Origin: Eledone cirrhosa
Lineage: Eukaryota
DNA: 64,000 bases
Direction of reading: 5' to 3'
Assembly: GCA_964016885.1 (NCBI GenBank)
Contig: OZ024748.1
Location: 7,874,001 to 7,938,000, forward strand
The translations under genes were made by a program, and so were the position numbers. A model generated the notes under the pieces. That model was not told the DNA's origin and ran no database searches. It saw only the letters and a program-made list of their open reading frames with translations. Shown piece after piece: positions 3,526 through 64,000 of the stretch (positions are counted from its first letter, which is position 1; each line of letters begins with the position of its first letter).

Positions 3526-6500
3526 TATATGTGTGTACAGAGAAAGAGAGACAACGGAAGTCCATTCAGTGAATTTGCGCTAGAGAGGTTGTCATATCCT
3601 CAGCACAATAAAGTGTTGCAGCTACTCTTAAGTTTTTCCAAAGAGAAGACAATCTTTCTAGTTCTGGTGTCTGGATGACATGACCTTAGCACACTGTAAA
3701 GAGTTGCCATAATGAAAGACATACAGCCTAGGGAAACATCACACAAAATATAATTTCGACCAGCACAACTCTTCTTACCTATGACAGCATAAAACAGTGA
3801 ACAGGATTGGATGGTATATACACAATCATATACAGACACACATATGTACATACATACATAGAGAAGGTCACTCTGATATAAAGCCTGTGACTTTGTTTGT
3901 ATCTAATAATGTAGACCAGTTCTACTTTTTGGGTAAATGCATTCGATGTTCAGGGAGTGGGATTGGCTCCATGCAAAGCCTTCTCTCACTTAAAAAAAGC
4001 TTCAAGCACAGGCATCACTTGATATGTGACATTTTTGCGAAGCATGCTATTGCTGGCCATAAGCAAGTCCCTAACAGGACTAAAAAGCAATGTATGTGAT
4101 GCTTAAATATCAAGCAATATCATTACTCGAAATCAAGTTGCAGCCATCATATATATGTATGTGTATGTGTATATGTATATATAATATATATATATACTGG
4201 GCCTCCAAGAGAAATTTTGCAAGGCGGTACAAGACCCCTTTGGGCTCGAAGCAGGCAAAGATTTTCCTCGAAATGGATGTTGCAAGGTTGCTGTGGGGCC
4301 TTCTTAGCTCTTCGACCCCAGAACAATGTACCAGCTGGACTCCCCTCTTATAGGCCTTGTATATATGTATATATACATGATATTTTTTTCTGCTTTTAAT
4401 GGAATTGTGACCATGCTGGGGCACCACCTTCAAAAGTTGTTTAGTCAGTTTCATTGATCTCACTTGTTGTTCTGGTAATTAGTTTCTTATTCTCAAGAGA
4501 TACATATTCTACAGTTGACATTGGCAAGAGGAAAGATAGCTTAGTTTGACAGGAATACTGCTGTTTGAATGTACCAGTTTTCAATGTATTGCTGATATAA
4601 ATATAAATATACACACATACATACATACAAACATGCATATATATATATACATATATATATTTATTTATGTATATAGAGAGATATATGTATGTATATATAA
4701 CTTTGATATGCTTTGGCCAGTATTGGCCCAGGCCATGTCTAACTTAATAGCACCACCATATATATGTGTGTGTGTATACATATATCTATGCGTACTTGTT
4801 TAAATACTGGTAACTAGAAACGAATTAAGCATATTATCAACACAGGACCAATTAATGTTTGAGAATGTAATAGTCACACTATTATTTATATAATCACATC
4901 ATATTTAAAATAAAATTTCAATTACTAAGTGTTCTTGTTTCCCATTGACAAATCAGGATTACACTAGAATACAACAAATACTAAAGGAATTTCTGATCAT
5001 CATACTTACAAACATAAGTTTTTGTGCTAGAGTGCTTTGCGGTGAATAACCTTTCTTATTTTTGTGTTTGTTTTTTAACATAAAAGTATTTCAACATTGC
5101 TTGAGATTCCAGGAGATTCATAAAAAGCAGATATGATTATACGGTAGTTATATATATTTTCTAATATCCTACTATTATAACAAATTACATGTTTATTTTT
5201 TATTAATGTTTGGTCCCTAATCTATAAATTATTCTACAAATCTAGATGTGTAATACAGGAAAATATTAAACATTATTGAGGAATAAGAAAGAAATAATCT
5301 ATCTACTTTAAATCTGACACTACTAATCGTTAAATGTTAATGTCTAATTAACTTGGATCACAATATCGGTGCTGTGGATATATATATATATAAAAAGTTT
5401 TATCATCTTTTCTCTTTTCTTGAATAGGTTATGGCTTTGATCTTGTGCAATTATGACAAATTGTTAAATTATTGGGGTTGTGAACATCTCAGCTTGTACT
5501 TTCCTATTTAGGACTAAGAACAGCTGGTGTGTATCTTTTGAACCAAGTTTGTGCCTTTTTGCAGTGCTTTTTCTTTTCTAGTAGATTGTCAACTGACAGC
5601 ACTGCATGTGCAACAAAGACACAAGCCCTATCAAAGCAAACAAACCTTTACAAAATATAACTTATTTTTATAAAATAAAACAATTTGAAATCAAGAATAG
5701 ATTTAAAATAATAATGGATTTATATTAGTATCATTGATCTCTTGAAGGATGTTGAAGATTTTTCATTTTGAAAACCATTGACAATCCAGAGAAAATTTCA
5801 TTGAAATTTTCTTAAATGGACAGTGCTCATCTTGCTGTCAACTAGTATAGAAATTGGTATTCAGATTGCTATTATTAAAAATATGAATTAATTATTTACT
5901 GATATTAAAGTTCAGAAAAATGTTCAGTTTCATCAAACAATTCTATATTTTGTTCTCAAAACATATTACTACATAATCACATTAGTAACAAAAAAAAAAC
6001 AAACAAAGAAAGTAAAATACCCTAAAAGAAATGTAATAGAAAGCCTTAAATGTTGTTAAAGTCATGATTACCCTGTATCTATTCAAATACCAAAATTAGT
6101 AATGTACCTAAAAAAGGAAGTTAACTGAAATTTTAAAATGAAAGGAAAATTCATTAAGAAATCCTATTAATTTTCACTAGTGTACAATTTCTTCTCTTTT
6201 TAAGACATTTATAATCTAAACCTTGGGACCTGAAAATTCTCTATCAATTAATCCTTAATTTTAGTATTGTTTTTAATATCTTTTGTCAATAATTTAAAAT
6301 TGACTTTCCTTCTGTACCTTTTCTAAAGAGAACTAGTCATAAATTATATTATTGCTGCTCCCAGTTCAACCACGAAAGCCACATTTGTCGATAATTGTGG
6401 CCATTACAAATGATGTTTCCTACACTACACCTGCAGACATCATATATGCTCGTGACCATCAGTTTTTTTATTTGTGTCCTGCACTAACTTTTATTTTAAC

Positions 6501-22285: not shown

Positions 22286-22622
22286 TGCGCATGCGTTACC
22301 CGGATGTAACATATGCGCAAACTAAGCACACAACACACACAAAAACAAGATGGCATAGGACAAACAAAGGAGAGGCACAAAACAAAGAAAAGAATCCCCA
22401 GTCACTGAATGTGTGAAGAAAGAACTTTGACAATATATGAACAACAACCATCTGGTTGTGGAACCAACGAACCAATTTTTTAAAATTTATAATTTAATTT
22501 ATAATAAATTGGAGTGAAAGCAACTGGTGCATGTGTTTCTTATTGGCAACATGACCCTCCCAAAGTATAACAATATCGTTTTTAGATAAAGAATGTTGCT
22601 AAACAAATTCAGAAACGAAATG
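22286..22622 (+). mobile_element. Short PLE 3'-end copy (hammerhead partly deleted), between TA-rich tracts
   Basis: Matches the 28070-28410 and 47121-47445 copies. Confidence 0.75.
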
Positions 22623-28069: not shown

Positions 28070-28077
<8 letters not shown>

Positions 28078-28405
28078 ATACTTTGAGAAAATGGCGTAGG
28101 ATAGAAGATAGAAGAAAGGAAAGGCACAGAAACGAAGAAAGAAATCCCCAGTCACTGAAGAGGTCACAGAGTGTGTGACGAAAGAACTATGACTATATAT
28201 ATATAAACAACTATCTGGTTGTGGAACCAACCAACCAACCAGAAATTTATAAATTTGTAAATTTATAAATATATAATAAATTAAATTGAAGTGAAAGCAA
28301 CTGGTGCGTGTGTTTCTTATTGGCAACATGACCCTCCCAAAGTATAACAATATCGGTTTCAACACACGATTTCAGATAAAGAATCTTGCTAAACAAATTC
28401 AGAAA

Positions 28406-28410
<5 letters not shown>
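28070..28410 (+). mobile_element. Short PLE 3'-end copy inside (TA)n
   Basis: Hammerhead plus ...atgaccctcccaaagtataacaatatcggtttcaacacacg tail; (TA)n on both sides. Confidence 0.8.
28150..28194 (+). ncRNA. Minimal hammerhead ribozyme in short PLE 3'-end copy
   Basis: agtca CTGAAGA g gtcaca-gagtg-tgtgac GAAA gaac TA tgact. Confidence 0.75.
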
Positions 28411-28465
<55 letters not shown>

Positions 28466-35997: not shown

Positions 35998-37686
35998 CTG
36001 AAAAATATCAGAAATAATAAAGAGGATAATTTTTGAAAAACAATCAAATGGTTTTGTTGCAGTGGCAAACAGTGAGTGTGTTTTACTTTTTTTTTTCTGA
36101 CAATATTAGAACAACATGGCCTTTCCCAAATATAACAAGGTCTTGTTGCAACAAAGTGGAAAGTTTGAATTCTGGACTGAATTAATTTTGTCCTTGAACA
36201 AGGCTTTTATTTCACCTTACTCAGTCCACTCATCTGGTAAAAAGGAGTCACACCAACACAGTCACCAAGCTGTATCGGCCTTTACCTTTCCATTGGATAA
36301 TATCGATGTCATAAAGAGAGAAGACTAGTATACACGGAAAACTGCTGAATTTTCCACAATCGAACCTGTCTATGGTTGTGCTTTGGAGAGACAAATCTAT
36401 CGTTAGCGGGCCATGGGTGTAAAGCCGATGGTCAAGTGGTTGACATAATATAGACACAAACACATTAACATAGTGTGTATAGTACAAAAACGTATTAACA
36501 TTGATTAAAACACCTGAAATAGAACGCAATACGAAACATAGTCAAATATAAACATTAAACAAAATCAAACACATTGATATCCAAACACAGAATCGTTACA
36601 ACGATAATAACGTTAGAATATCAGTTAAAATACACTGTAGTTTAAGGGTATTTTACTTGATTTTCTAACGCTATTATCATTGTAACGATTTCAAATGTTT
36701 CGAGTCATCCAAACGCCTCGTTAAATCGCAAGACATTTAAAAATGTATCTGTATGTGTGTGTATATGTGTGTGTGTATGAGTACGTTGCGACCGTGTCAA
36801 TGTTTATACTTACATCGGATTAAGAAACCGTTGTTGTTGTGTATGCTATATTAATCTAAGTCCCATAACTGAATAGTTCACAACATAGACAGCAATGCTT
36901 AGCAGATTAAGGAAGTCACCCATATAGCAGAAATGAAACCTAATTTCAATAGAAAGCAGGAATGGAATAGTAACAATCCCACGACCTAGAGATTGAGGAT
37001 AAAAATATTAGGACACACTGGGCTAGATACACAGGAGTGCACTAACATAGAAATGGGAATTAGTGTGTGTGTATGTATAGGTATGGACATATGAAAACTG
37101 GTGCAAAGTCGCCAAGGTTTACTCAAATAGATCCCACATGCAGATAGGTGTAAACACACAGAAACTTGCGGGAGTAAGAATATATAAAGACAAACGCACA
37201 TACACACACATGTGTAGAGAGTTACATTCGTTTACCACACACATCACAGAATGACAGAAAGATAAAGAAGAGATGGTGTAACTGGAGCAAAGCCGAAACG
37301 AAGAGGAGAACCAGGGGACCAAAATAGTTCTAAAGAATGTCACAGTATTCGCGACGAAGGAGCTTTGTCAATTAAATAACCATCTGGTCGCTAAACCAAC
37401 CAATGGATGGCTTAGTTACCTAACTAATAATAAACACCCAAGTGAAATACAACTGGTGCGTGCTCATATTTATATTGGCAGCACGACCCACCCAGCATGT
37501 GTGTGTATATATATATATATATATGCGATTATAGTGTAATAGTTCACTATTTTCTTTGGTAAGATGAGTTAGGCTCGATGCACTTTTTTTTTACCCTTCG
37601 TTCTTCAGAAGCGAACATAAACTGGATGAATATATTATGATAATATAAATAAATAAATAAAAATAATAATCATGGGTGTTATTGAA

Positions 37687-43759: not shown

Positions 43760-44430
43760 AAGTGTAAGTGTAGATTAGATGTACAATATACCAGATGTAG
43801 GTAGTGTTAGTGTAGATTAGATGCACTACACCAGATGTAGGTAGTGTTAGTGTAGACTAGATGTACTATACCAGATGTAGGTAGTGTTAGTGTAAACTAT
43901 ATGTACTATACCAGATGTAGGTAGTGTTAGTGTAAACTAGATGTACTATACCAGATGTAGGTAGTGTTAGTGTAAACTAGATGTACTATACCAGATGTAG
44001 GTAGTGTTAGTGTAAACTAGATGTACTATACCAGATGTAGTTAGTGTTAGTGTAAACTAGATGTACTACACCAGATGTAGGTAGTGTTAGTGTAAACTAG
44101 ATGTACAATATACCAGATATAGGTAGTGTTAGTGTAAACTAGATGTACTAAACCAGATGTAGGTAGTGTTAGTGTAGACTAGATGTACAATATACCAGAT
44201 GTAGGTTAGATGCTAGTGTAAACTAGATGTACTATACCAGACGTAGGTAGTGTTAGTGTAGACTAGATGTGCTATACCAGATGTAGGTAAGATGTGATGT
44301 AGACTAGATGTACTATACCAGATGTAAGTTAGATGTTAGTGTAAACTAGATGTACTCTACCAGATGTAGGTAGTGTTAGTGTAAACTAGATGTATGTTAC
44401 TAGCTGTAGTGAAATATTAGTGTAAACTTA
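43760..44430. repeat. ~40-bp minisatellite filling a contactin intron
   Basis: Unit tagtgtaaactagatgtactataccagatgtaggtagtgt, ~16 copies. Confidence 0.95.
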
Positions 44431-44431
44431 C

Positions 44432-44595
44432 TTCACTATAATAAGGGTTTTTTTCTATGTCAATTGGATGACCATTAAAATACCATTTGTAAGCAATCTC
44501 AAAGTCAGGATCATAAGAGACAGCACAATAAAAGAAAGCTGTTTCATTGACAATCACTTCGATGTTTGATGGACGTCGACTTATTACCAAACGTT
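44432..44595 (-). CDS. Cont: Contactin exon, Ig6 N-half
   Basis: RPSNIEVIVNETAFFYCAVSYDPDFEIAYKWYFNG; ttcag/gtaagt. Confidence 0.93.
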
Positions 44596-44689
44596 CTGAA
44601 GAAATAAAAACATCTTAATAACATTTCCTGGAGCAATTTTACATTAAATAACATCATCTCCATGGGAACTGTACCCGATTTTGTCAACA

Positions 44690-45690
44690 TGTGACAAGTA
44701 GAACCAGTGTAATACATGACAAGGGTAGACCTTTATATTACAGGTAGAATTACAGGTAGAACCAGTGTAATACATGACAAGGGTGGACCTTTATATTACA
44801 GGTAGAATTACAGGTAGAACCAGTGTAATACATGACAAGGGTGGACCTTTATATTACAGGTAGAATTACAGGTAGAACCAGTGTAATACATGACAGAGGT
44901 GGACCTTTATATTACAGGTAGAATTACAGGTAGAACCAGTGTAATACATGACAGGGGTGTATCTTTATATTACAGGTAGAATTACAGGTAGAACCAGTGT
45001 AATACATGACAAGGGTGGACCTTTATATTACAGGTAGAACCAGTGTAATACATGACAGAGGTGGACCTTTATATTACAGGTAGAATTACAGGTAGAACCA
45101 GTGTAATACATGACAAGGGTGGACCTTTATATTACAGGTAGAATTACAGGTAGAACCAGTGTAATACATGACAAGGGTGGACCTTTATATTACAGGTAGA
45201 ACCAGTGTAATACATGACAGAGGTGGACCTTTATATTACAGGTAGAATTACAGGTAGAACCAGTGTAATACATGACAGGGGTGGACCTTTATATTACAGG
45301 TAGAATTACAGGTAGAACCAGTGTAATACATGACAGGGGTGGACCTTTATATTACAGGTAGAATTACAGGTAGAACCAGTGTAATACATGACAAGGGTGG
45401 ACCTTTATATTACAGGTAGAATTACAGGTAGAACCAGTGTAATACATGACAAGGGTGGACCTTTATATTACAGGTAGAACCAGTGTAATACATGACAAGG
45501 GTGGACCTTTATATTACAGGTAGAATTACAGGTAGAACCAGTGTAATACATGACAAGGGTGTATCTTTATATTACAGGTAGAATTACAGGTAGAACCAGT
45601 GTAATACATGACAGGGGTGTATCTTTATATTACAGGTAGAACCAGTGTAATACAACATGTGACAAGGGTGGTCCTGTTAATTACAGGTAA
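44690..45690. repeat. 58/46-bp minisatellite
   Basis: Unit gaaccagtgtaatacatgacaagggtggacctttatattacaggta with or without an extra 12-bp ttacaggtagaa. Confidence 0.95.
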
Positions 45691-46878: not shown

Positions 46879-46937
<59 letters not shown>

Positions 46938-46944
<7 letters not shown>

Positions 46945-47445
46945 ATACTTTGGGAGGGTCATGTTGCCAATAAGAAACACGCGCACCAGGGGCTTTCACT
47001 TCAATTTATTATAATAAATTTATAAATTTAGGAATTTATAAATTTCCGGTTGATTGGTTGCTTCCACAACCAGATGGTTGTTTATATATTGTCAAGGTTC
47101 TTTCGTCACACATTCTGTGAACACACACACAGAAACAAGATGGCGTAGGACAGAACAAAGGAGAGGCACAAAAACAAAGAAAAGAATCCCCAGTCACTGA
47201 AGAGGTCACAGAATGTGTGACGAAAGAACCTTGACAATATATAAACAACCATCTGGTTGTAGAACCAACCAACCAACCGGAAATTTATAAATTCCTAAAT
47301 TTATAAATTTATTATAATAAATTGAAGTGAAAGCAACTGGTGCGTGTGTTTCTTATTGGCAACATGACCCTCCCAAAGTATAACAATATCGGTTTCAACA
47401 CACGTTTTCAGATAAAGAATCTTGCTAAACAAATTCAGAAACGAT
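46938..47445 (+). mobile_element. PLE 3'-end copy with inverted 5' arm (fold-back), inside (TA)n
   Basis: 46938-47120 is an imperfect reverse complement of 47206-47389; hammerhead motif at 47193-47235. Confidence 0.85.
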
Positions 47446-47620
47446 ATATATATATATATACAAATAATAATAAAAAGGACGAGGTATTAGATCTTCATTA
47501 CATTTATTGAGGTGTGACGCGCGTTTCGCGATTGATTAGCTCAAGGCTCGATCTATATCGATCAGGCCCGACTCTGGAATCAAAAGCTCGTCGGACTTCT
47601 GTTATGGTATGGCATGGCAT

Positions 47621-50407: not shown

Positions 50408-50599
50408 CTATTCAAATAAAGAATAAAACATTTGAGAGTATATTTATGAGTCCTACCATAGTCAACAGTTATCTATTAAGCATATAAATGGTTTGAAAAA
50501 GAATTAAAGATATTTTGATTAAAACATTTAAAAGAAAATAAATATTTTCAAATTGAATAGCAAAAGAACACAATGGGGGGAAATATAGAAACATAATAA

Positions 50600-50641
50600 T
50601 CACTGATGATGTCACAGATATGTGTGACGAAAGAACTCTGA
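50600..50641 (+). ncRNA. Minimal hammerhead in old PLE 3'-end copy (~50570-50825)
   Basis: tca CTGATGA t gtcaca...tgtgac GAAA gaac TC tga; downstream cagtgagtgtgtt...ctggcaatatt matches the 62.3 kb tail. Confidence 0.68.
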
Positions 50642-50931
50642 GAAACTACATTTATATTTATATTTTTTAACTGTTGGTCAGTCAATGATAAATATTGATT
50701 GGCAGCTGAATTAATTATAGAAATATATATACTGAAGCGAGAACCAAACCAATCAGTGAGTGTGTTTTACTATATTAACCTGGCAATATTAGAATAATAT
50801 GGCCCTCCCTAAATATAAAAATTTAAACTCCCATTACAAGAAATGGTAAGGAGATTGCTGCATAACGGTTTCCACCACTTTAGGAACTGATGTAAATAAG
50901 ATGTATGGGGAATTAGGATAGTAGCAGCTGC

Positions 50932-57981: not shown

Positions 57982-58160
57982 TGGAGATAGATAAAGAATT
58001 CAATAATCCACAATATAATATATTGGTTTCTGCGTTGGACAGAAAGCCAGAAATTTGGGAAAGAGAAAAGTCGATATAAACCAAAGTAAAATGTAAGCCA
58101 CTGAACCTGAAGATCCAGAACAAGCAGTCCCATGTATTTGCCCGTTGACAATCTGCCATA

Positions 58161-58566
58161 TAATTGTTTCTACTTTTGGCACAAGGCCAGCAATTATCCC
58201 AGTGTATTACTGGTACTTTATTTTATCAACCCCGTAATAATTGTTTCTACTTTTGGCACAAGGCCAGCAATTATGCCAGTGTATTACTGGTACTTTATTT
58301 TATCAACCCCGTAATAATTGTTTCTACTTTTGGCACAAGGCCAGCAATTATGCCAGTGTATTACTGGTACTTTATTTTATCAACCCCGTAATAATTGTTT
58401 CTACTTTTGGCACAAGGCCAGCAATTATGCCAGTGTATTACTGCTACTTTATTTTATCAACGCCGTAATAATTGTTTCTACTTTTGGCACAAGGCCAGCA
58501 ATTATGCCAGTGTATTACTGGTACTTTATTGGATTTGAATTCAGACCATAAAGGGCCGTAACTCTA
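58161..58566 (-). repeat. 77-bp tandem amplification of a SINE 3' portion (~5 copies)
   Basis: taattgtttctacttttggcacaaggccagc... repeated every 77 bp, then a SINE head remnant. Confidence 0.92.
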
Positions 58567-59279: not shown

Positions 59280-59306
59280 TATATATATATGGATATATAT
59301 ATGTTT

Positions 59307-59505
59307 ATGATTTAGGCACAAGGCCAGCGACTTGTGGGGAGGGGGAAGTTGATCAAATCGACTCCAGTGCATTACTGGTACTTTATTTTACCGACCCCAT
59401 AAGGATGAAAGGCAAAGTTAACCTCGGCGGGATTTGAACTCAGATCATAAAGGGCCGTAACTCTATGTTGCAAAACATGGCATTCAACCCTCTACCGATA
59501 CTGCC
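59307..59505 (-). mobile_element. SINE family A (longer-tail variant); more partial copies near 11.4, 14.3, 17.6, 25.8, 27.5, 34.0, 35.6, 41.8, 51.1, 59.6 and 60.2 kb
   Basis: Same core with an extra ggggagggggaagt segment. Confidence 0.85.
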
Positions 59506-60027
59506 CTAAATATTGACATTATAATGATACCAGTAATGCACTGGGTGATTGCTGGCCTTGTGCCTAAAGTAGAAACAATTATAATGATCAGTAAAATAAT
59601 AATTGTTTCTACAGTTGGCACAAGGCCAGCAATTATCCAGTACATTACTGGTACTATATTTTATCGACCTCGTAAGAGACACAAAGCTTACAATCTGTGG
59701 GGGGTGGGGGGTGAAATGGATTATCCTGACTCAATACATTACTGGTACATTATTTCATCGACCTCGGAAGGATGAAAGGCATAATTGATATCGGAAGGAT
59801 TTGAACTCTGAATTTAGTGAACCCGAACAAATATCTGATACCTTAATGACTCTGCAACGTATTACCTTAATGGTAAAGGGACTTTAACTCTTAATGGAGT
59901 CATAATGGCACCAGGTCAGATCGCAGCCGATTTCTTCTGGGGAAAGAAGGACAGGTTTGTTTCTCTCACATCAAATATTAGGACTATCATAGAATATTGA
60001 ACTTGTTCAACAGTAAGCAAGTCTTAC

Positions 60028-60122
60028 CTCGCATTTAGCAACTGCACTGTCAAATTTCACCGCGGGATTTGGAACAAATTGGTAGCAAAACAAATTGTAA
60101 GTTACCCAGGAAATTGGACAGC
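60028..60122 (-). CDS. Cont: Contactin exon, CTLD start (CPISWVTYNLFCYQF...SAVAKCE)
   Basis: ttttag acceptor, gtaag donor; CP..W...CY.F...A...C lectin-fold motif. Confidence 0.9.
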
Positions 60123-61755
60123 CTAAAATATTAACGAAAAAATAATTGTTGTTTATTCACAAATACAGAATGATTTATTTATTAAAGTCTCGTTGTTTAT
60201 ACAAACGGATTTATGTAATGTTTATCCTTCCATTGAGGGGAGGGGAAAGTCGATTAAATCGACACCAGTGCATTACTGCTACTTTATTTTATCGACCCCG
60301 TAAGGACGAAAAGCAAATGTATATATTTATTTACTGCACGACATGTTAAATACTCCCAAGTCATTTTCTTAGATAAATATTCACATGAAAAAGTCAGTAA
60401 AATGAAAGAAAGCTTGAAAAATATTAAACTATGATCTGAAAATGTTCTATGGACACTCAAAAAAGAAAACTTCAACCAATACCACCACGCCCTAGGCCCA
60501 TCACACTCCCTCTTCACCCCACCCCCTCCTTCTGTGACCCTAGAGCCCTTGTCTTTCCCTTCCTATTCCGTCTTAAAATATTAATAAAGATAATTTTAGA
60601 AAGAGGACAACTATCGACAACATCAGTTTTTACGAAGGGTGAAGGAAAAGAATATTACATTGAAATCGTAAAATACGTTTTAAGAAAAAAACACTAATGA
60701 ATATTGCTGTCTATTGCTGTGTTTCTTATTTCAGGGGCGCTGGAACTGGAATGGGGTAGGGAGGTGTAGGAGACCCACCCCCACCCAATTATTATATTTT
60801 TCTCCCTAAGCTATCAAAACACACATCTATTTATATATACTCTACAATTTATGTACATGTTATGTTTATCGCATATCGAAGTTTTCTGACGATTTTAGAG
60901 TTCAAAGATCTAAACTAATCACTACAACTAAATTGACTAAATTTGCTCTCCCCACCCCCAGAAATTATGAAATGCTTAATCAATTATATCTAGAGTTCTA
61001 ATGAGTGGAAACGTTTCATTATTTACAAAAGCAATTAATTAACTACTTTTAAATTTTATTTCTGGAATTTATCATGTAAATACAGTTTAATAGAAAAAGA
61101 AAATTTAGATTGAGAAGAATGGAATGTAAAATAGGAGAATATAGAGGAAAAAGAGAAAAAGAAAAAACAGGAAGCGGGGAGGGAATGGCAAGAACTCTAA
61201 AGTGATAGAAGAATGGGGAGGGGAAGGGGGATGATTGGGCTCTGGGCCCAGGGCGCGGCGGTAGAGGGCTGCACCTTGCGGACATATGATTTAAAATATT
61301 TGATACAACATTACAAAATCTACATATATTAGCATAACATCTAATCTAGATGTAGAAACAGGAAGAGAGATTCTGAACTGAACAGGCCAAGAATAATAGA
61401 ATAGGTATATTAAAAGAATAACAGAATATATATATTAAATAAAATGAAATATGTGATCAAATCCGATATTATACAAAATATTTTTTTTCTTTTAATTCAC
61501 CACCATAGGCGCTGAGCTGGCCAGCCGCAGGTGTGAGCCCCACGAGTTGGAGTGGCTCTTCCAGCGCATCTCCCTTTCCATCCTCCGAGGAAACGACTTC
61601 TCCATCCTGCCCGCCGGGGCTGTGGGGAGGCCAGCACATAGGACCCCATTTGCTCACCATACGGATTAATAGGCAAAGTTATAAACTATTGTAAATAAAT
61701 GTTTGTGATACAAAAGATAGAAGAGTAAACAAGAAAAACACAAGAAATATCTAAC

Positions 61756-61901: not shown

Positions 61902-62509
61902 TTTCAGTATTGAATGGGGACATGTTTCCAAGTTGTTGGCCACCTGAAACTCAGGTGGTTTAGTCAACAACCAATTGTAAGGTTCTTTAATTTACATATC
62001 GCTTTATTGTATGAATTTTCAATGTTTCCTCGCGTCTTTTATCAATTCATAATAACAGCAAAGTTTCCCATAGACTTCCCACCTTCCACAATAAGCTAAC
62101 ATAATGCAATACTGTCTTTTTAATATTTATTCAGCAATAGAACAAATATAAACACACATCTCAAAAGTCGTCGTTGTTTCTTAGGTTATTTTGACAAGAC
62201 TAATTATCATGAACGTACATGTGTTATATATATATATATATATATATATAAATATATTAGTTTTGCGAGGTTTTTTATATGAAATCGTGTGTCGAAACAA
62301 ATATTGTTATACTTGGGGAGGGTCATATTTGTGTAATATTGCCAGAATTAATAACAGAACACACTCACTGTTTGGTTGGTTTTCGCTTCTCGCTTCTGTG
62401 TCTTTTATATCGGTAATCTAACTTACTCGGTCCTCAATGTTGCCATTGACTGACCGACGGTCAAAAATAATACAGCTACAATATAGACACAAGCACATAT
62501 ATATAGTTT

Positions 62510-62551
62510 ATCATAAATCTTTCGTTGCACATCTGCAACATCGTCAGTGGT
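62510..62551 (-). ncRNA. Minimal type I hammerhead ribozyme in PLE 3' tail
   Basis: acca CTGACGA t gttgca-gatg-tgcaac GAAA gatt TA tgat; stem I imperfect. Confidence 0.7.
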
Positions 62552-62796
62552 GTTATCGTTTCCTCCTGTTGTATTATATGTCTACGCCATTTTTATTCAG
62601 TCTGTCTATATATTTATTTATTTATTTGCTTGTTTGTTTATTTTATTTTGTCTTCTTTGCGCATGCGTTTGCGTGTGTGTAGTGTTTTGTTTGCTGTGTG
62701 ATGGGTGACTAGTGTATGTTTATGTGCTTGTTGTTATTGTGTTTGTGTATGTATGTATTTATTTATTTATTTATTTATTTTATTTTATTTACTTAT

Positions 62797-63999
62797 TTAT
62801 ACTTCTCTTAGGTCAGTGTTGTTTGTTTGGGTGTTGTTGTTATTCCATTCATTCTTTCTGTTTAGTCTTGGCCTTCTAATTTCTATTTCACTGGCCTCTC
62901 TGATTTGCCTATCTGCTGGGTCATTTCTATGTTTAGATATTATTCTAATTTCTGTGTTGTCTATGTTACCGTCGTGTTGTTGTCTAGCATGTTCGTATAG
63001 TACTGACCCGTTTTTTCGTCCTTTTAGTTCCCCCCAGTGTTGGTCTATCTTTTCACCTATGCTACGAGCTGTCTCACCTATGTATGTTGTTGTCATGTTT
63101 CTGCAAGTACCCTCTGTACATCTTATGCTATAGACTACGTTTCTAGTTTTACAGTTTATCCGGGGGTTTACCTTACATATGATACACTTCCTATTGGTAC
63201 AGTGGGTTTTCTTAAAAGGGTAGGTTTTGCTGATCAGGGATTTTATGGTGGTTCCTGGCTTTTCTACCACCTTAATTTTTAAGTGGGTCTTTCTCAGGGC
63301 CTTTCTACACTGGTTAGCTAATTTCCCTCCGGGGGTGGCGTCCACAAACATGACACTCTGGTATCTCTGGTTGTCGTACCATGAGGTGGCTTTCCCTATC
63401 TTATGTCTAGCCCTATCTAAGCTATTCCATGATTTGCTCCTGTATAATGGGCAAATTCCTTTCATGTCCAGTTCTATGAGGGTATTATACTTCTCCATGG
63501 CTCCTTCGTATACTCTAACTCTGTCTCTTTGGTTGTAGCCAGAGAACTGCATGCGGTTGATGAAGTGTTGGATGTGTCTTTCCATTTCTGTTGGGTCGCA
63601 CATGCTGGACACATTCTTCATCACTCGTACCAAATCTGCGATCAGAATATTAAACTTAGCACTACTGGACATTGCTGAGTTTTTGAGTATCAGGTATTTG
63701 GAGGCCATGGGTTTAGCATAGTGTGAGTGGAGAATTTGGGCTCTCTCGTCTATAGTGTTAATCCAGAGTTCTGTGTCTAATACAGGTAGTCTATTGTTAG
63801 GGTGTTTGGAAGGGAAGTCGATAGTTACAGTAATACTCTGGTGTATGGAATTAGCTATCTGCTGGATGCTTTCCATCGTGCTACGTTCTAAATCAAACTT
63901 GTTGGTGCTTTCTAGTGGGGATGTTCTTATAACTATATTGATATCGTCTACATAACGAGAGTACATGATGAGGTCTATGGAGCTCTCATTAAGGAGATC
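62797..63999 (-). CDS. Penelope-like element ORF (RT C-terminus/thumb, Cys knuckle, GIY-YIG endonuclease); truncated by window edge
   Basis: YSRYVDD RT motif, MQFSGY thumb, CTNRKCIIC knuckle, NVVYSIRC...C...YIGETAR...H GIY-YIG. Frame is open to the window end. Confidence 0.93.
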   Translation of the reverse strand, partial: DLLNESSIDLIMYSRYVDDINIVIRTSPLESTNKFDLERSTMESIQQIANSIHQSITVTIDFPSKHPNNRLPVLDTELWINTIDERAQILHSHYAKPMASKYLILKNSAMSSSAKFNILIADLVRVMKNVSSMCDPTEMERHIQHFINRMQFSGYNQRDRVRVYEGAMEKYNTLIELDMKGICPLYRSKSWNSLDRARHKIGKATSWYDNQRYQSVMFVDATPGGKLANQCRKALRKTHLKIKVVEKPGTTIKSLISKTYPFKKTHCTNRKCIICKVNPRINCKTRNVVYSIRCTEGTCRNMTTTYIGETARSIGEKIDQHWGELKGRKNGSVLYEHARQQHDGNIDNTEIRIISKHRNDPADRQIREASEIEIRRPRLNRKNEWNNNNTQTNNTDLREV

Positions 64000-64000
64000 T

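What the first reader, a model, noticed from the sequence alone, without database searches (positions are those of the whole stretch)
62250..64000. Hammerhead-carrying Penelope-like system: a coding element plus short (TA)n-associated derivatives across the locus
Seen: an open RT/Cys-knuckle/GIY-YIG ORF whose 3' tail holds a CUGANGA/GAAA hammerhead and ends on (TA)n. Related 250-500 bp tails occur at 22.3, 28.1, 37.3, 47.1 and 50.6 kb (fragment at 36.07 kb), most ending on TA-rich microsatellite. Established: Penelope-like elements carry minimal type I hammerheads, and some clades target simple repeats. Inference: this is a cephalopod Naiad/Neptune-like family targeting (TA)n, and its short copies may be retrozyme-like non-autonomous RNAs rather than random truncations.
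Basis: partly seen in the sequence, partly recalled or inferred. Interest (0 to 1): 0.75.

Follow-up and report, generated by a model that had tools for sequence, protein, structure and literature searches.

The report
Octopus Penelope retrotransposon with hammerhead ends
This is a young, very abundant Penelope-type jumping gene that lands on TA repeats and carries a predicted self-cutting RNA motif; the short look-alikes nearby are end pieces of sister protein-coding families rather than a separate RNA parasite, though many start at one spot that likely marks where the element's RNA begins.

Summary
62,258-64,000 (minus) is a 5'-truncated Penelope-like element: RT, Cys linker, C-terminal GIY-YIG and a minimal type I hammerhead. 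Its hammerhead has 8,226 exact genomic matches, and 58 of 66 sampled 3' ends sit on (TA)n, against 9.5% background. It is not a Naiad (endonuclease is C-terminal, no recurrent UGA); the endonuclease looks Nematis-like, not Neptune-like. The short copies are not derived from this element. Those at 22.3, 28.1 and 47.1 kb belong to a sister coding family B, in which 44 of 70 sampled copies run into their own ORF. Retrozyme hallmarks fail: 0 and 1 head-to-tail junctions genome-wide, 0 of 100 ends at the ribozyme cut, and short copies mix with long ones in a tree. The 5' ends are not random, however: 1,072 head-to-head junctions sit at a YY1-like motif against 36 in a control zone, likely the transcription start. 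The RT carries a conserved insert of about 65-70 aa at the telomerase IFD position, which I did not find described for C-terminal-EN elements. The scan earlier noted similar 5' hotspots in other genomes.

The parts
62797..64000 (-). C-terminal 400 codons of the family-A ORF (RT palm and thumb, Cys linker, GIY-YIG EN); the copy starts about 84 bases beyond the window, at motif B'
   Evidence: 98% identical to the 1,130-codon open frame of copy L121
63943..63954 (-). RT catalytic motif YVDD
   Evidence: translation
63175..63201 (-). CX2-5CxxC linker (C-x4-C-x2-C), followed 7 residues later by the first Cys of the EN
62845..63153 (-). GIY-YIG endonuclease (VY...YIGET with two internal Cys, two His, P-x-LN end)
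   Evidence: motifs compared by eye with Fig. S2 of PMC8557442; Pfam GIY-YIG hit in 2 of 26 aligned relatives only, none for the window piece
62659..62667 (-). NRF1-like palindrome in the pseudo-LTR (predicted promoter element)
   Evidence: human consensus in PMC13017510; function untested
62585..62593 (-). YY1-like motif; 5' ends of short copies pile up just upstream (predicted transcription start)
62506..62553 (-). minimal type I hammerhead; helix II 6 bp, helix III 2 bp, helix I weak (2 bp, mismatch, 1 bp); predicted cut after 62,514
62258..62326 (-). 'tail' = start codon and first 23 codons of the ORF of the next tandem unit; this copy ends at ATG+69
62225..62257 (.). (TA)n at the 3' end
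22298..22621 (+). family-B end piece, hammerhead core deleted, TA-rich on both sides
28070..28412 (+). family-B (subfamily B3) short copy starting at the 5' hotspot, intact hammerhead with 5-bp helix I, 19-bp inverted stub, (TA)n on both sides
46937..47449 (+). family-B head-to-head insertion: inverted arm 46,937-47,120 ending at ATG+26, direct arm 47,120-47,449 ending near ATG+84; U16.1 lost
50560..50822 (+). older family-C end piece with intact hammerhead, not on (TA)n
   Evidence: 1 of 9 exact relatives (L345) has an upstream RT-EN ORF
36879..37500 (+). decayed 5'-truncated copy of a further family, with EN C-terminal remnant and degenerate hammerhead
36066..36153 (+). decayed fragment of the pseudo-LTR 3' part

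Best explanation
The 62-64 kb element is a 5'-truncated copy of a young, autonomous Penelope-like retrotransposon (family A) with a C-terminal endonuclease, and the short copies are end pieces of sister coding families that were likely made by the same copying reaction. SHOWN: full units of about 4.1-4.4 kb occur in tandem; each ends in a pseudo-LTR holding the hammerhead and the first codons of the next unit's ORF; 3' ends fall at ATG+26 and ATG+69 to +86 and abut (TA)n; most 5' ends are scattered, often with an inverted second arm; a minority (8 of 70 in A, 16 of 70 in B) start just upstream of a YY1-like motif. INFERRED: the pseudo-LTR promoter starts RNA at that motif. The protein nicks (TA)n and primes reverse transcription inside the RNA at the two tail sites, probably helped by 3-5 nt of TA microhomology. 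When it primes at the downstream tail it gives variably truncated coding copies. When it primes at the tail nearest the RNA 5' end, or on a short transcript from a lone 3' pseudo-LTR, it runs off the RNA start and gives a discrete solo piece of about 250-330 bp. The hammerhead is predicted to cut weakly, as a dimer or with protein help, and does not set the copy ends.
For: Copy counts: 8,226 and 14,651 exact hammerhead words. Tandems with 4,145-4,147, 4,083 and 4,423-bp periods; intact 1,265-1,318 aa ORFs in B. Foldseek: 12 top hits are telomerase RTs. 3' ends at +26: 31 of 70 A, 32 of 70 B; at +84/+86: 10 and 27; (TA)3 within 14 nt in 58 of 66 and 66 of 70 against 9.5-9.7% background. Copies reaching the ORF: 50 of 70 A, 44 of 70 B. 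Hotspot: 14 of 26 ends in 22 nt (expected 1.9; 0 of 200,000 scans as extreme) in B, 7 of 19 in 18 nt (p 0.006) in A; 1,072 against 36 head-to-head junctions. Short and long copies intermingle: 11 label changes for 14 short rows, shuffles as low in 43 of 500. Precedent: internal initiation at two sites in the ORF start (PMC11167929), promoter in the pseudo-LTR (PMC2377424), pLTR including the first codons (PMC3846280).
Against: No RNA evidence for the start site; the YY1 and NRF1 motifs are matches to human consensus words, and family C lacks a clear YY1-like word yet also seems to start 35-50 nt before its hammerhead (by eye, 9 loci). An RT pause or microhomology hotspot in the A/C-rich run could give the same pile-up; other smaller clusters sit at AT-rich palindromes. 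PMC11167929 reports initiation without target homology, against the microhomology step, and some ATAT words in the tail are hardly used. Samples are the first exact matches on one contig, biased to young copies; two-arm insertions were collapsed by hand.
Confidence: 0.8

Rival explanations
1. The short copies are retrozymes: non-coding hammerhead RNAs that circularise and are copied as multimers by the Penelope protein.
For: Size (250-330 bp) and type I hammerhead fit; 5' ends are clustered; retrozymes are reported to derive from pLTRs (10.64898/2026.07.22.740005); scan notes report true tandem retrozymes elsewhere in this genome (unchecked).
Against: Head-to-tail junctions of the family-B short unit: 0 and 1 genome-wide against 21,058 tail words. 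No same-strand neighbour closer than 1,570 bp among 100 A and 100 B hammerheads. 0 of 100 5' ends within 2 nt of the predicted cut, with 3 at +3/+4 in a TA run. The one short-only clade dissolved: 20 of 30 members of that subfamily have the ORF upstream. The one short tandem seen lacks the hammerhead and includes the (TA)n.
Confidence: 0.05
2. The solo pieces are SINE-like: short copies or lone 3' pseudo-LTRs are themselves transcribed from an internal promoter and remobilised in trans as linear RNAs, adding a self-sustaining non-coding tier.
For: Discrete ends at both sides; the YY1-like motif lies inside the copied part; most of 9 family-C relatives look short; pLTRs can act in trans (PMC3846280).
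Against: No short-specific lineage in trees of 61 B and 53 A rows; identical pLTRs occur in short and long copies; hotspot copies lose the upstream NRF1-like word.
Confidence: 0.15
3. The 5' pile-up is an RT stall or fold-back hotspot in a read-through RNA, so all short copies are plain truncations with a sequence bias.
For: Symmetric head-to-head pairs occur at many positions; the hotspot lies in an A/C-rich low-complexity run.
Against: About 30-fold excess over a TA-palindromic control zone; same position relative to the conserved motif in two families whose proteins are only 66% identical.
Confidence: 0.2

Closest known systems
Canonical C-terminal EN+ Penelope-like elements, Nematis clade (PMC8557442, introduction, section 12, Figs S1-S2 read as text)
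   Same: RT, CX2-5CxxC linker, GIY-YIG order; 7 residues between CxxC and the next Cys (7-9 in the Nematis rows, over 20 in the Neptune rows); short P-x-LN end; hammerhead in pLTR; tandem and inverted insertions with optional tail
   Different: RT motif A to B' spacer is about 123 aa against 44-63 aa in short-spacer hits; the nematode rows of Fig. S1 show no insert; no tree with named references could be built
Naiad (PMC8557442)
   Same: (TA)n bias, CX2-5CxxC motif, an insert at the IFD position, very high copy number
   Different: EN is C-terminal; hammerhead present; DKSG not DKA; no recurrent in-frame UGA; insert about 65-70 aa against about 20 aa
Poseidon PAc of Anolis (PMC11167929, parts 1-2 of 4)
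   Same: two internal RT start sites inside the ORF start that define the tail; AT-rich targets; no sign that the hammerhead sets ends
   Different: sites at +26 and +84/86 rather than about +111-118; hammerhead lies 180-226 nt upstream of the ATG; ends coincide with TA words; Cys linker present
Minimal hammerheads of metazoan PLEs (PMC4209133, parts 1-2 of 4)
   Same: long helix II, unpaired base before helix II, G-C first pair, 1-2 bp helix III, mostly dispersed single motifs tied to truncated PLEs
   Different: family A has a helix I of only 2 bp plus a mismatch, as described for D. virilis
Metazoan non-LTR retrozymes (PMC7229834, passages; 10.64898/2026.07.22.740005, part 1 of 5 and passages)
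   Same: unit size, type I hammerhead, link to pLTRs
   Different: no tandem short units, no separation from the coding element, minimal rather than canonical ribozyme
Adineta Penelope elements (PMC3846280, passages)
   Same: pLTR includes first codons, palindromic head-to-head junctions, solo pLTRs, asparagine-rich inserts in the ORF
   Different: thousands of copies, TA targeting, N-rich tract lies N-terminal of the RT

Membership tests
EN+ Penelope-like element | single ORF with telomerase-related RT | tested here: met
   intact 1,265-1,318 aa ORFs; RVT_1 E 3.7e-5, below the Pfam cut-off; AlphaFold model (pLDDT 80) matches TERTs best
EN+ Penelope-like element | GIY-YIG EN with CCHH motif | tested here: met
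   motifs compared by eye; Pfam GIY-YIG in 2 of 26 relatives
EN+ Penelope-like element | pLTRs from tandem or inverted insertion, with optional tail | tested here: met
EN+ Penelope-like element | type I hammerhead in the pLTR | tested here: met
   core invariant, helix II 100% paired with 2 two-sided changes, all from the single family-A row
EN+ Penelope-like element | self-cleavage activity | not testable with these tools
   needs in vitro assay
Naiad | N-terminal EN | tested here: not met
   EN follows RT; the same in 104 of 106 scorable proteins, and the 2 exceptions look like fused or partial records
Naiad | lack of canonical hammerhead; DKA motif | tested here: not met
   hammerhead present; DKSG in the ORF
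Naiad selenoprotein type | recurrent in-frame UGA with SECIS | tested here: not met
   full ORFs read to TAA without UGA; among family-A copies no TGA recurs more than twice at one codon; SECIS itself not searched
Neptune | CX2-5CxxC linker with long spacer to the EN, P..GLN end | tested here: not met
   spacer 7 aa; a long-spacer hit (P0108, 29 aa) is only 24% identical; judged by motif only
Nematis | CX2-5CxxC linker with short spacer | tested here: met
Nematis | RT phylogeny within the clade | not testable with these tools
   no named reference sequences were available as tool inputs
Nematis | no insert at the IFD position | tested here: not met
   spacer 123 aa in A and B
Hydra clade | EN without CCHH; GSYDG-type motif B' | tested here: not met
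   two Cys inside the GIY-YIG and GAAIG motif
Non-LTR retrozyme | head-to-tail tandem units with a hammerhead in each | tested here: not met
   (junction search for family B only)
Non-LTR retrozyme | non-coding lineage separate from the autonomous element | tested here: not met
Non-LTR retrozyme | expressed as circular RNA | not testable with these tools
   needs RNase R RNA-seq

The most novel reading that the evidence does not exclude
These families represent an unnamed, widespread marine clade of Penelope-like elements that joins a Nematis-type C-terminal endonuclease to an RT with a large telomerase-IFD-like insert, and its thousands of solo pseudo-LTR copies are run-off cDNAs that record the RNA start (an NRF1/YY1-type promoter) and both RT initiation sites at base resolution, with TA microhomology priming; these proteins may also be the helpers of the tandem retrozymes in the same genome.
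Probability: 0.35. Interest if true: 0.6.

Novelty: new variant of a known kind. Interest (0 to 1): 0.36.

Why it matters
The basic anatomy is known. Two things add value. First, young copies in the tens of thousands give a natural record of Penelope copying: fixed 3' starts, TA targets, and a 5' hotspot that is not the ribozyme cut. That makes the open questions of where the RNA starts and what the hammerhead does directly testable. Second, an IFD-position insert in a C-terminal-EN lineage would weaken the published contrast that canonical PLEs lack it, and bears on the PLE-telomerase link.

Tried and rejected
Rfam: no hammerhead family among the 150 of 181 matches shown, which were nearly all microsatellite-driven miRNA hits. 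A DNA search with the 28.1-kb piece returned nothing because its words are too common; pattern searches replaced it. Sequencing runs: no RNA holder listed; contigs of 4 runs showed no GT-AG joint, and one 449-nt skip in one contig was not taken as an intron, so the donor-like words at 62,360-62,370 and 62,418-62,429 remain untested. ESM Atlas gave no answer. A short-only clade around the 28.1-kb copy was rejected after a wider sample. A 270-297 bp tandem of family A was rejected as a retrozyme: no hammerhead, unit includes (TA)n. Symmetric two-arm junctions were rejected as proof of a start site, because they occur at many positions. The control does not cover a symmetric junction exactly at the ribozyme cut, so it is only a background zone. 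The tree of 33 long-spacer and 3 short-spacer RTs splits them with 100% SH-aLRT, but the three outgroup rows are long branches and unnamed, so it names no clade. Literature: one search for an IFD in Penelope-like elements returned only PMC8557442; searches listed no paper on this octopus family; Repbase and Dfam were not available.

Full report
OBSERVATION. The minus strand holds a 400-codon open frame at 62,797-63,999 with YVDD, a C-x4-C-x2-C linker and a GIY-YIG-type domain. The neighbouring genome stretch shows the copy is truncated about 84 bases beyond the window, at motif B'. Downstream lie the hammerhead core, a 6-bp helix II and GAAA (62,547-62,520), and the end at 62,258 on (TA)n. The six related pieces exist, but they match the coding element over only 35-90 bp, and the 37.3-kb piece not at all. 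The pieces at 22.3, 28.1 and 47.1 kb are 79-93% identical to another family, B. The copies lie among exons of an Ig-domain host gene.

WHAT THE ELEMENT IS. The genome is 3.0 Gb; the 40 scored relatives are 97-100% identical. Exact words count 8,226 (A hammerhead), 14,651 (B hammerhead), 10,729 and 21,058 (A and B tail). Tandem arrays show the full unit: 4,145-4,147 bp in A, 4,083 and 4,423 bp in B. The junction shows that the 'tail' is the start of the next unit's ORF, which explains why the families share it. Family B has intact ORFs of 1,265-1,318 aa, 66% identical to A over 789 residues. No intact ATG-to-stop ORF of A was found in the loci checked; the longest open frame is 1,130 codons. 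The AlphaFold model matches telomerase RTs best. The best named relative is an Octopus vulgaris protein at 68%.

CLADE. The EN is C-terminal, a hammerhead is present and no UGA recurs, so Naiad is excluded by the definitions in PMC8557442. By eye against that paper's Fig. S2, the 7-residue spacer after CxxC and the P-x-LN end resemble Nematis, not Neptune. The RT has about 123 residues between motifs A and B'. Of 275 stored proteins, 152 could be scored: 148 have 110-149 residues and 4 have 44-63. These hits were selected by similarity, so the share is no frequency among PLEs. The insert is predicted folded (pLDDT about 86-97). PMC8557442 states that canonical PLEs lack the IFD, with sporadic exceptions in Coprina. 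My one search for another report returned only that paper; Repbase was not available, so the lineage may already be catalogued under generic names.

HAMMERHEAD. In 9 distinct rows from families A, B and C the core is invariant and helix II is fully paired, with two compensatory changes, all from the one A row. Helix I is 5 bp in part of B but weak in A. This fits the minimal hammerheads of PMC4209133, which cleave poorly and as dimers. Activity is untested.

3' ENDS. In the first 70 exact matches per family on contig C1, ends fall at ATG+26 (31 A, 32 B), near +69 (4 A exactly) and at +84/+86 (10 A, 27 B); 4 A copies continue into a tandem unit. (TA)3 follows within 14 nt in 58 of 66 and 66 of 70, against 9.5-9.7% of background positions; only 10 of 47 and 9 of 57 5' ends have it. 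Two internal start sites match the in vitro result for the Anolis element (PMC11167929). Each preferred end coincides with a TA word of the template, which suggests but does not prove microhomology priming.

5' ENDS AND THE RETROZYME TEST. Fifty of 70 A and 44 of 70 B copies reach the ORF. Against retrozymes: no close same-strand neighbours among 200 hammerheads; 0 and 1 head-to-tail junctions genome-wide for B; 0 of 100 tail-anchored B copies start at the cut; short copies mix with long ones; and the subfamily of the 28.1-kb copy (2,540 words) has the ORF upstream in 20 of 30 members. After collapsing two-arm insertions, 14 of 26 B ends and 7 of 19 A ends within 300 nt of the hammerhead fall in windows of 22 and 18 nt just upstream of a YY1-like motif. 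Genome-wide, 1,072 head-to-head junctions lie there against 36 in a control zone about 110 nt downstream. An NRF1-like palindrome lies 40-100 nt further up. In human promoters YY1 acts just downstream and NRF1 upstream of the start (PMC13017510, passages), and the D. virilis Penelope promoter lies in the pseudo-LTR (PMC2377424, passages). I therefore read the hotspot as the likely RNA start. I had this lead (note) before seeing scan notes that report similar hotspots in other genomes.

MECHANISM. Shown: structure, copy numbers, end positions, target bias. Inferred: promoter and start site, nicking of (TA)n, internal priming, run-off synthesis of solo pieces, weak or assisted ribozyme cutting.

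PAPERS SEEN. PMC8557442: passages, sections 3 and 12, supplement parts 2, 54, 55 and term searches. PMC4209133 and PMC11167929: parts 1-2 of 4. 10.64898/2026.07.22.740005: part 1 of 5 and passages, supplements not seen. PMC7229834, PMC3846280, PMC2377424, PMC13017510, PMC13282606: passages.

VERDICT. A real, young Penelope-like system of a known kind with a variant RT. The retrozyme reading fails for families A and B, while the 5' hotspot and the insert are worth follow-up. Interest 0.36.

Noticed in passing
   Followed up: no
window 25,289-55,259 minus: Exons of an Ig-domain cell-adhesion gene (three exons hit Pfam Ig; one further exon looks FN3-like by eye, no Pfam hit).
   Followed up: partly
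window 58,160-58,530 and 59,300-60,330: Abundant SINE-like repeat with a 77-bp unit tandemly amplified 4.8 times.
   Followed up: no
L032 850-2,946: Frame-broken ORF with motifs like the Hydra clade of PLEs, beside a family-A copy.
   Followed up: no
L297 1,170-2,260: Four tandem copies of a small two-arm family-A insertion including its (TA)n, without hammerhead; likely DNA-level duplication.
   Followed up: yes
L341 653-4,606; L121 3,343-6,732: Long asparagine-rich, variable-length tract between the N-terminal helical region and the RT; predicted disordered in the family-A model.
   Followed up: partly
window 62,360-62,370 minus; 50,754-50,764; 36,070-36,080: Splice-donor-like word about 40 nt upstream of the ATG, conserved in families A and C; possible 5' intron as in D. 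virilis Penelope.
   Followed up: partly
window 43,761-45,690: Two minisatellites, 40-bp (16 copies) and 58-bp (17 copies).
   Followed up: no
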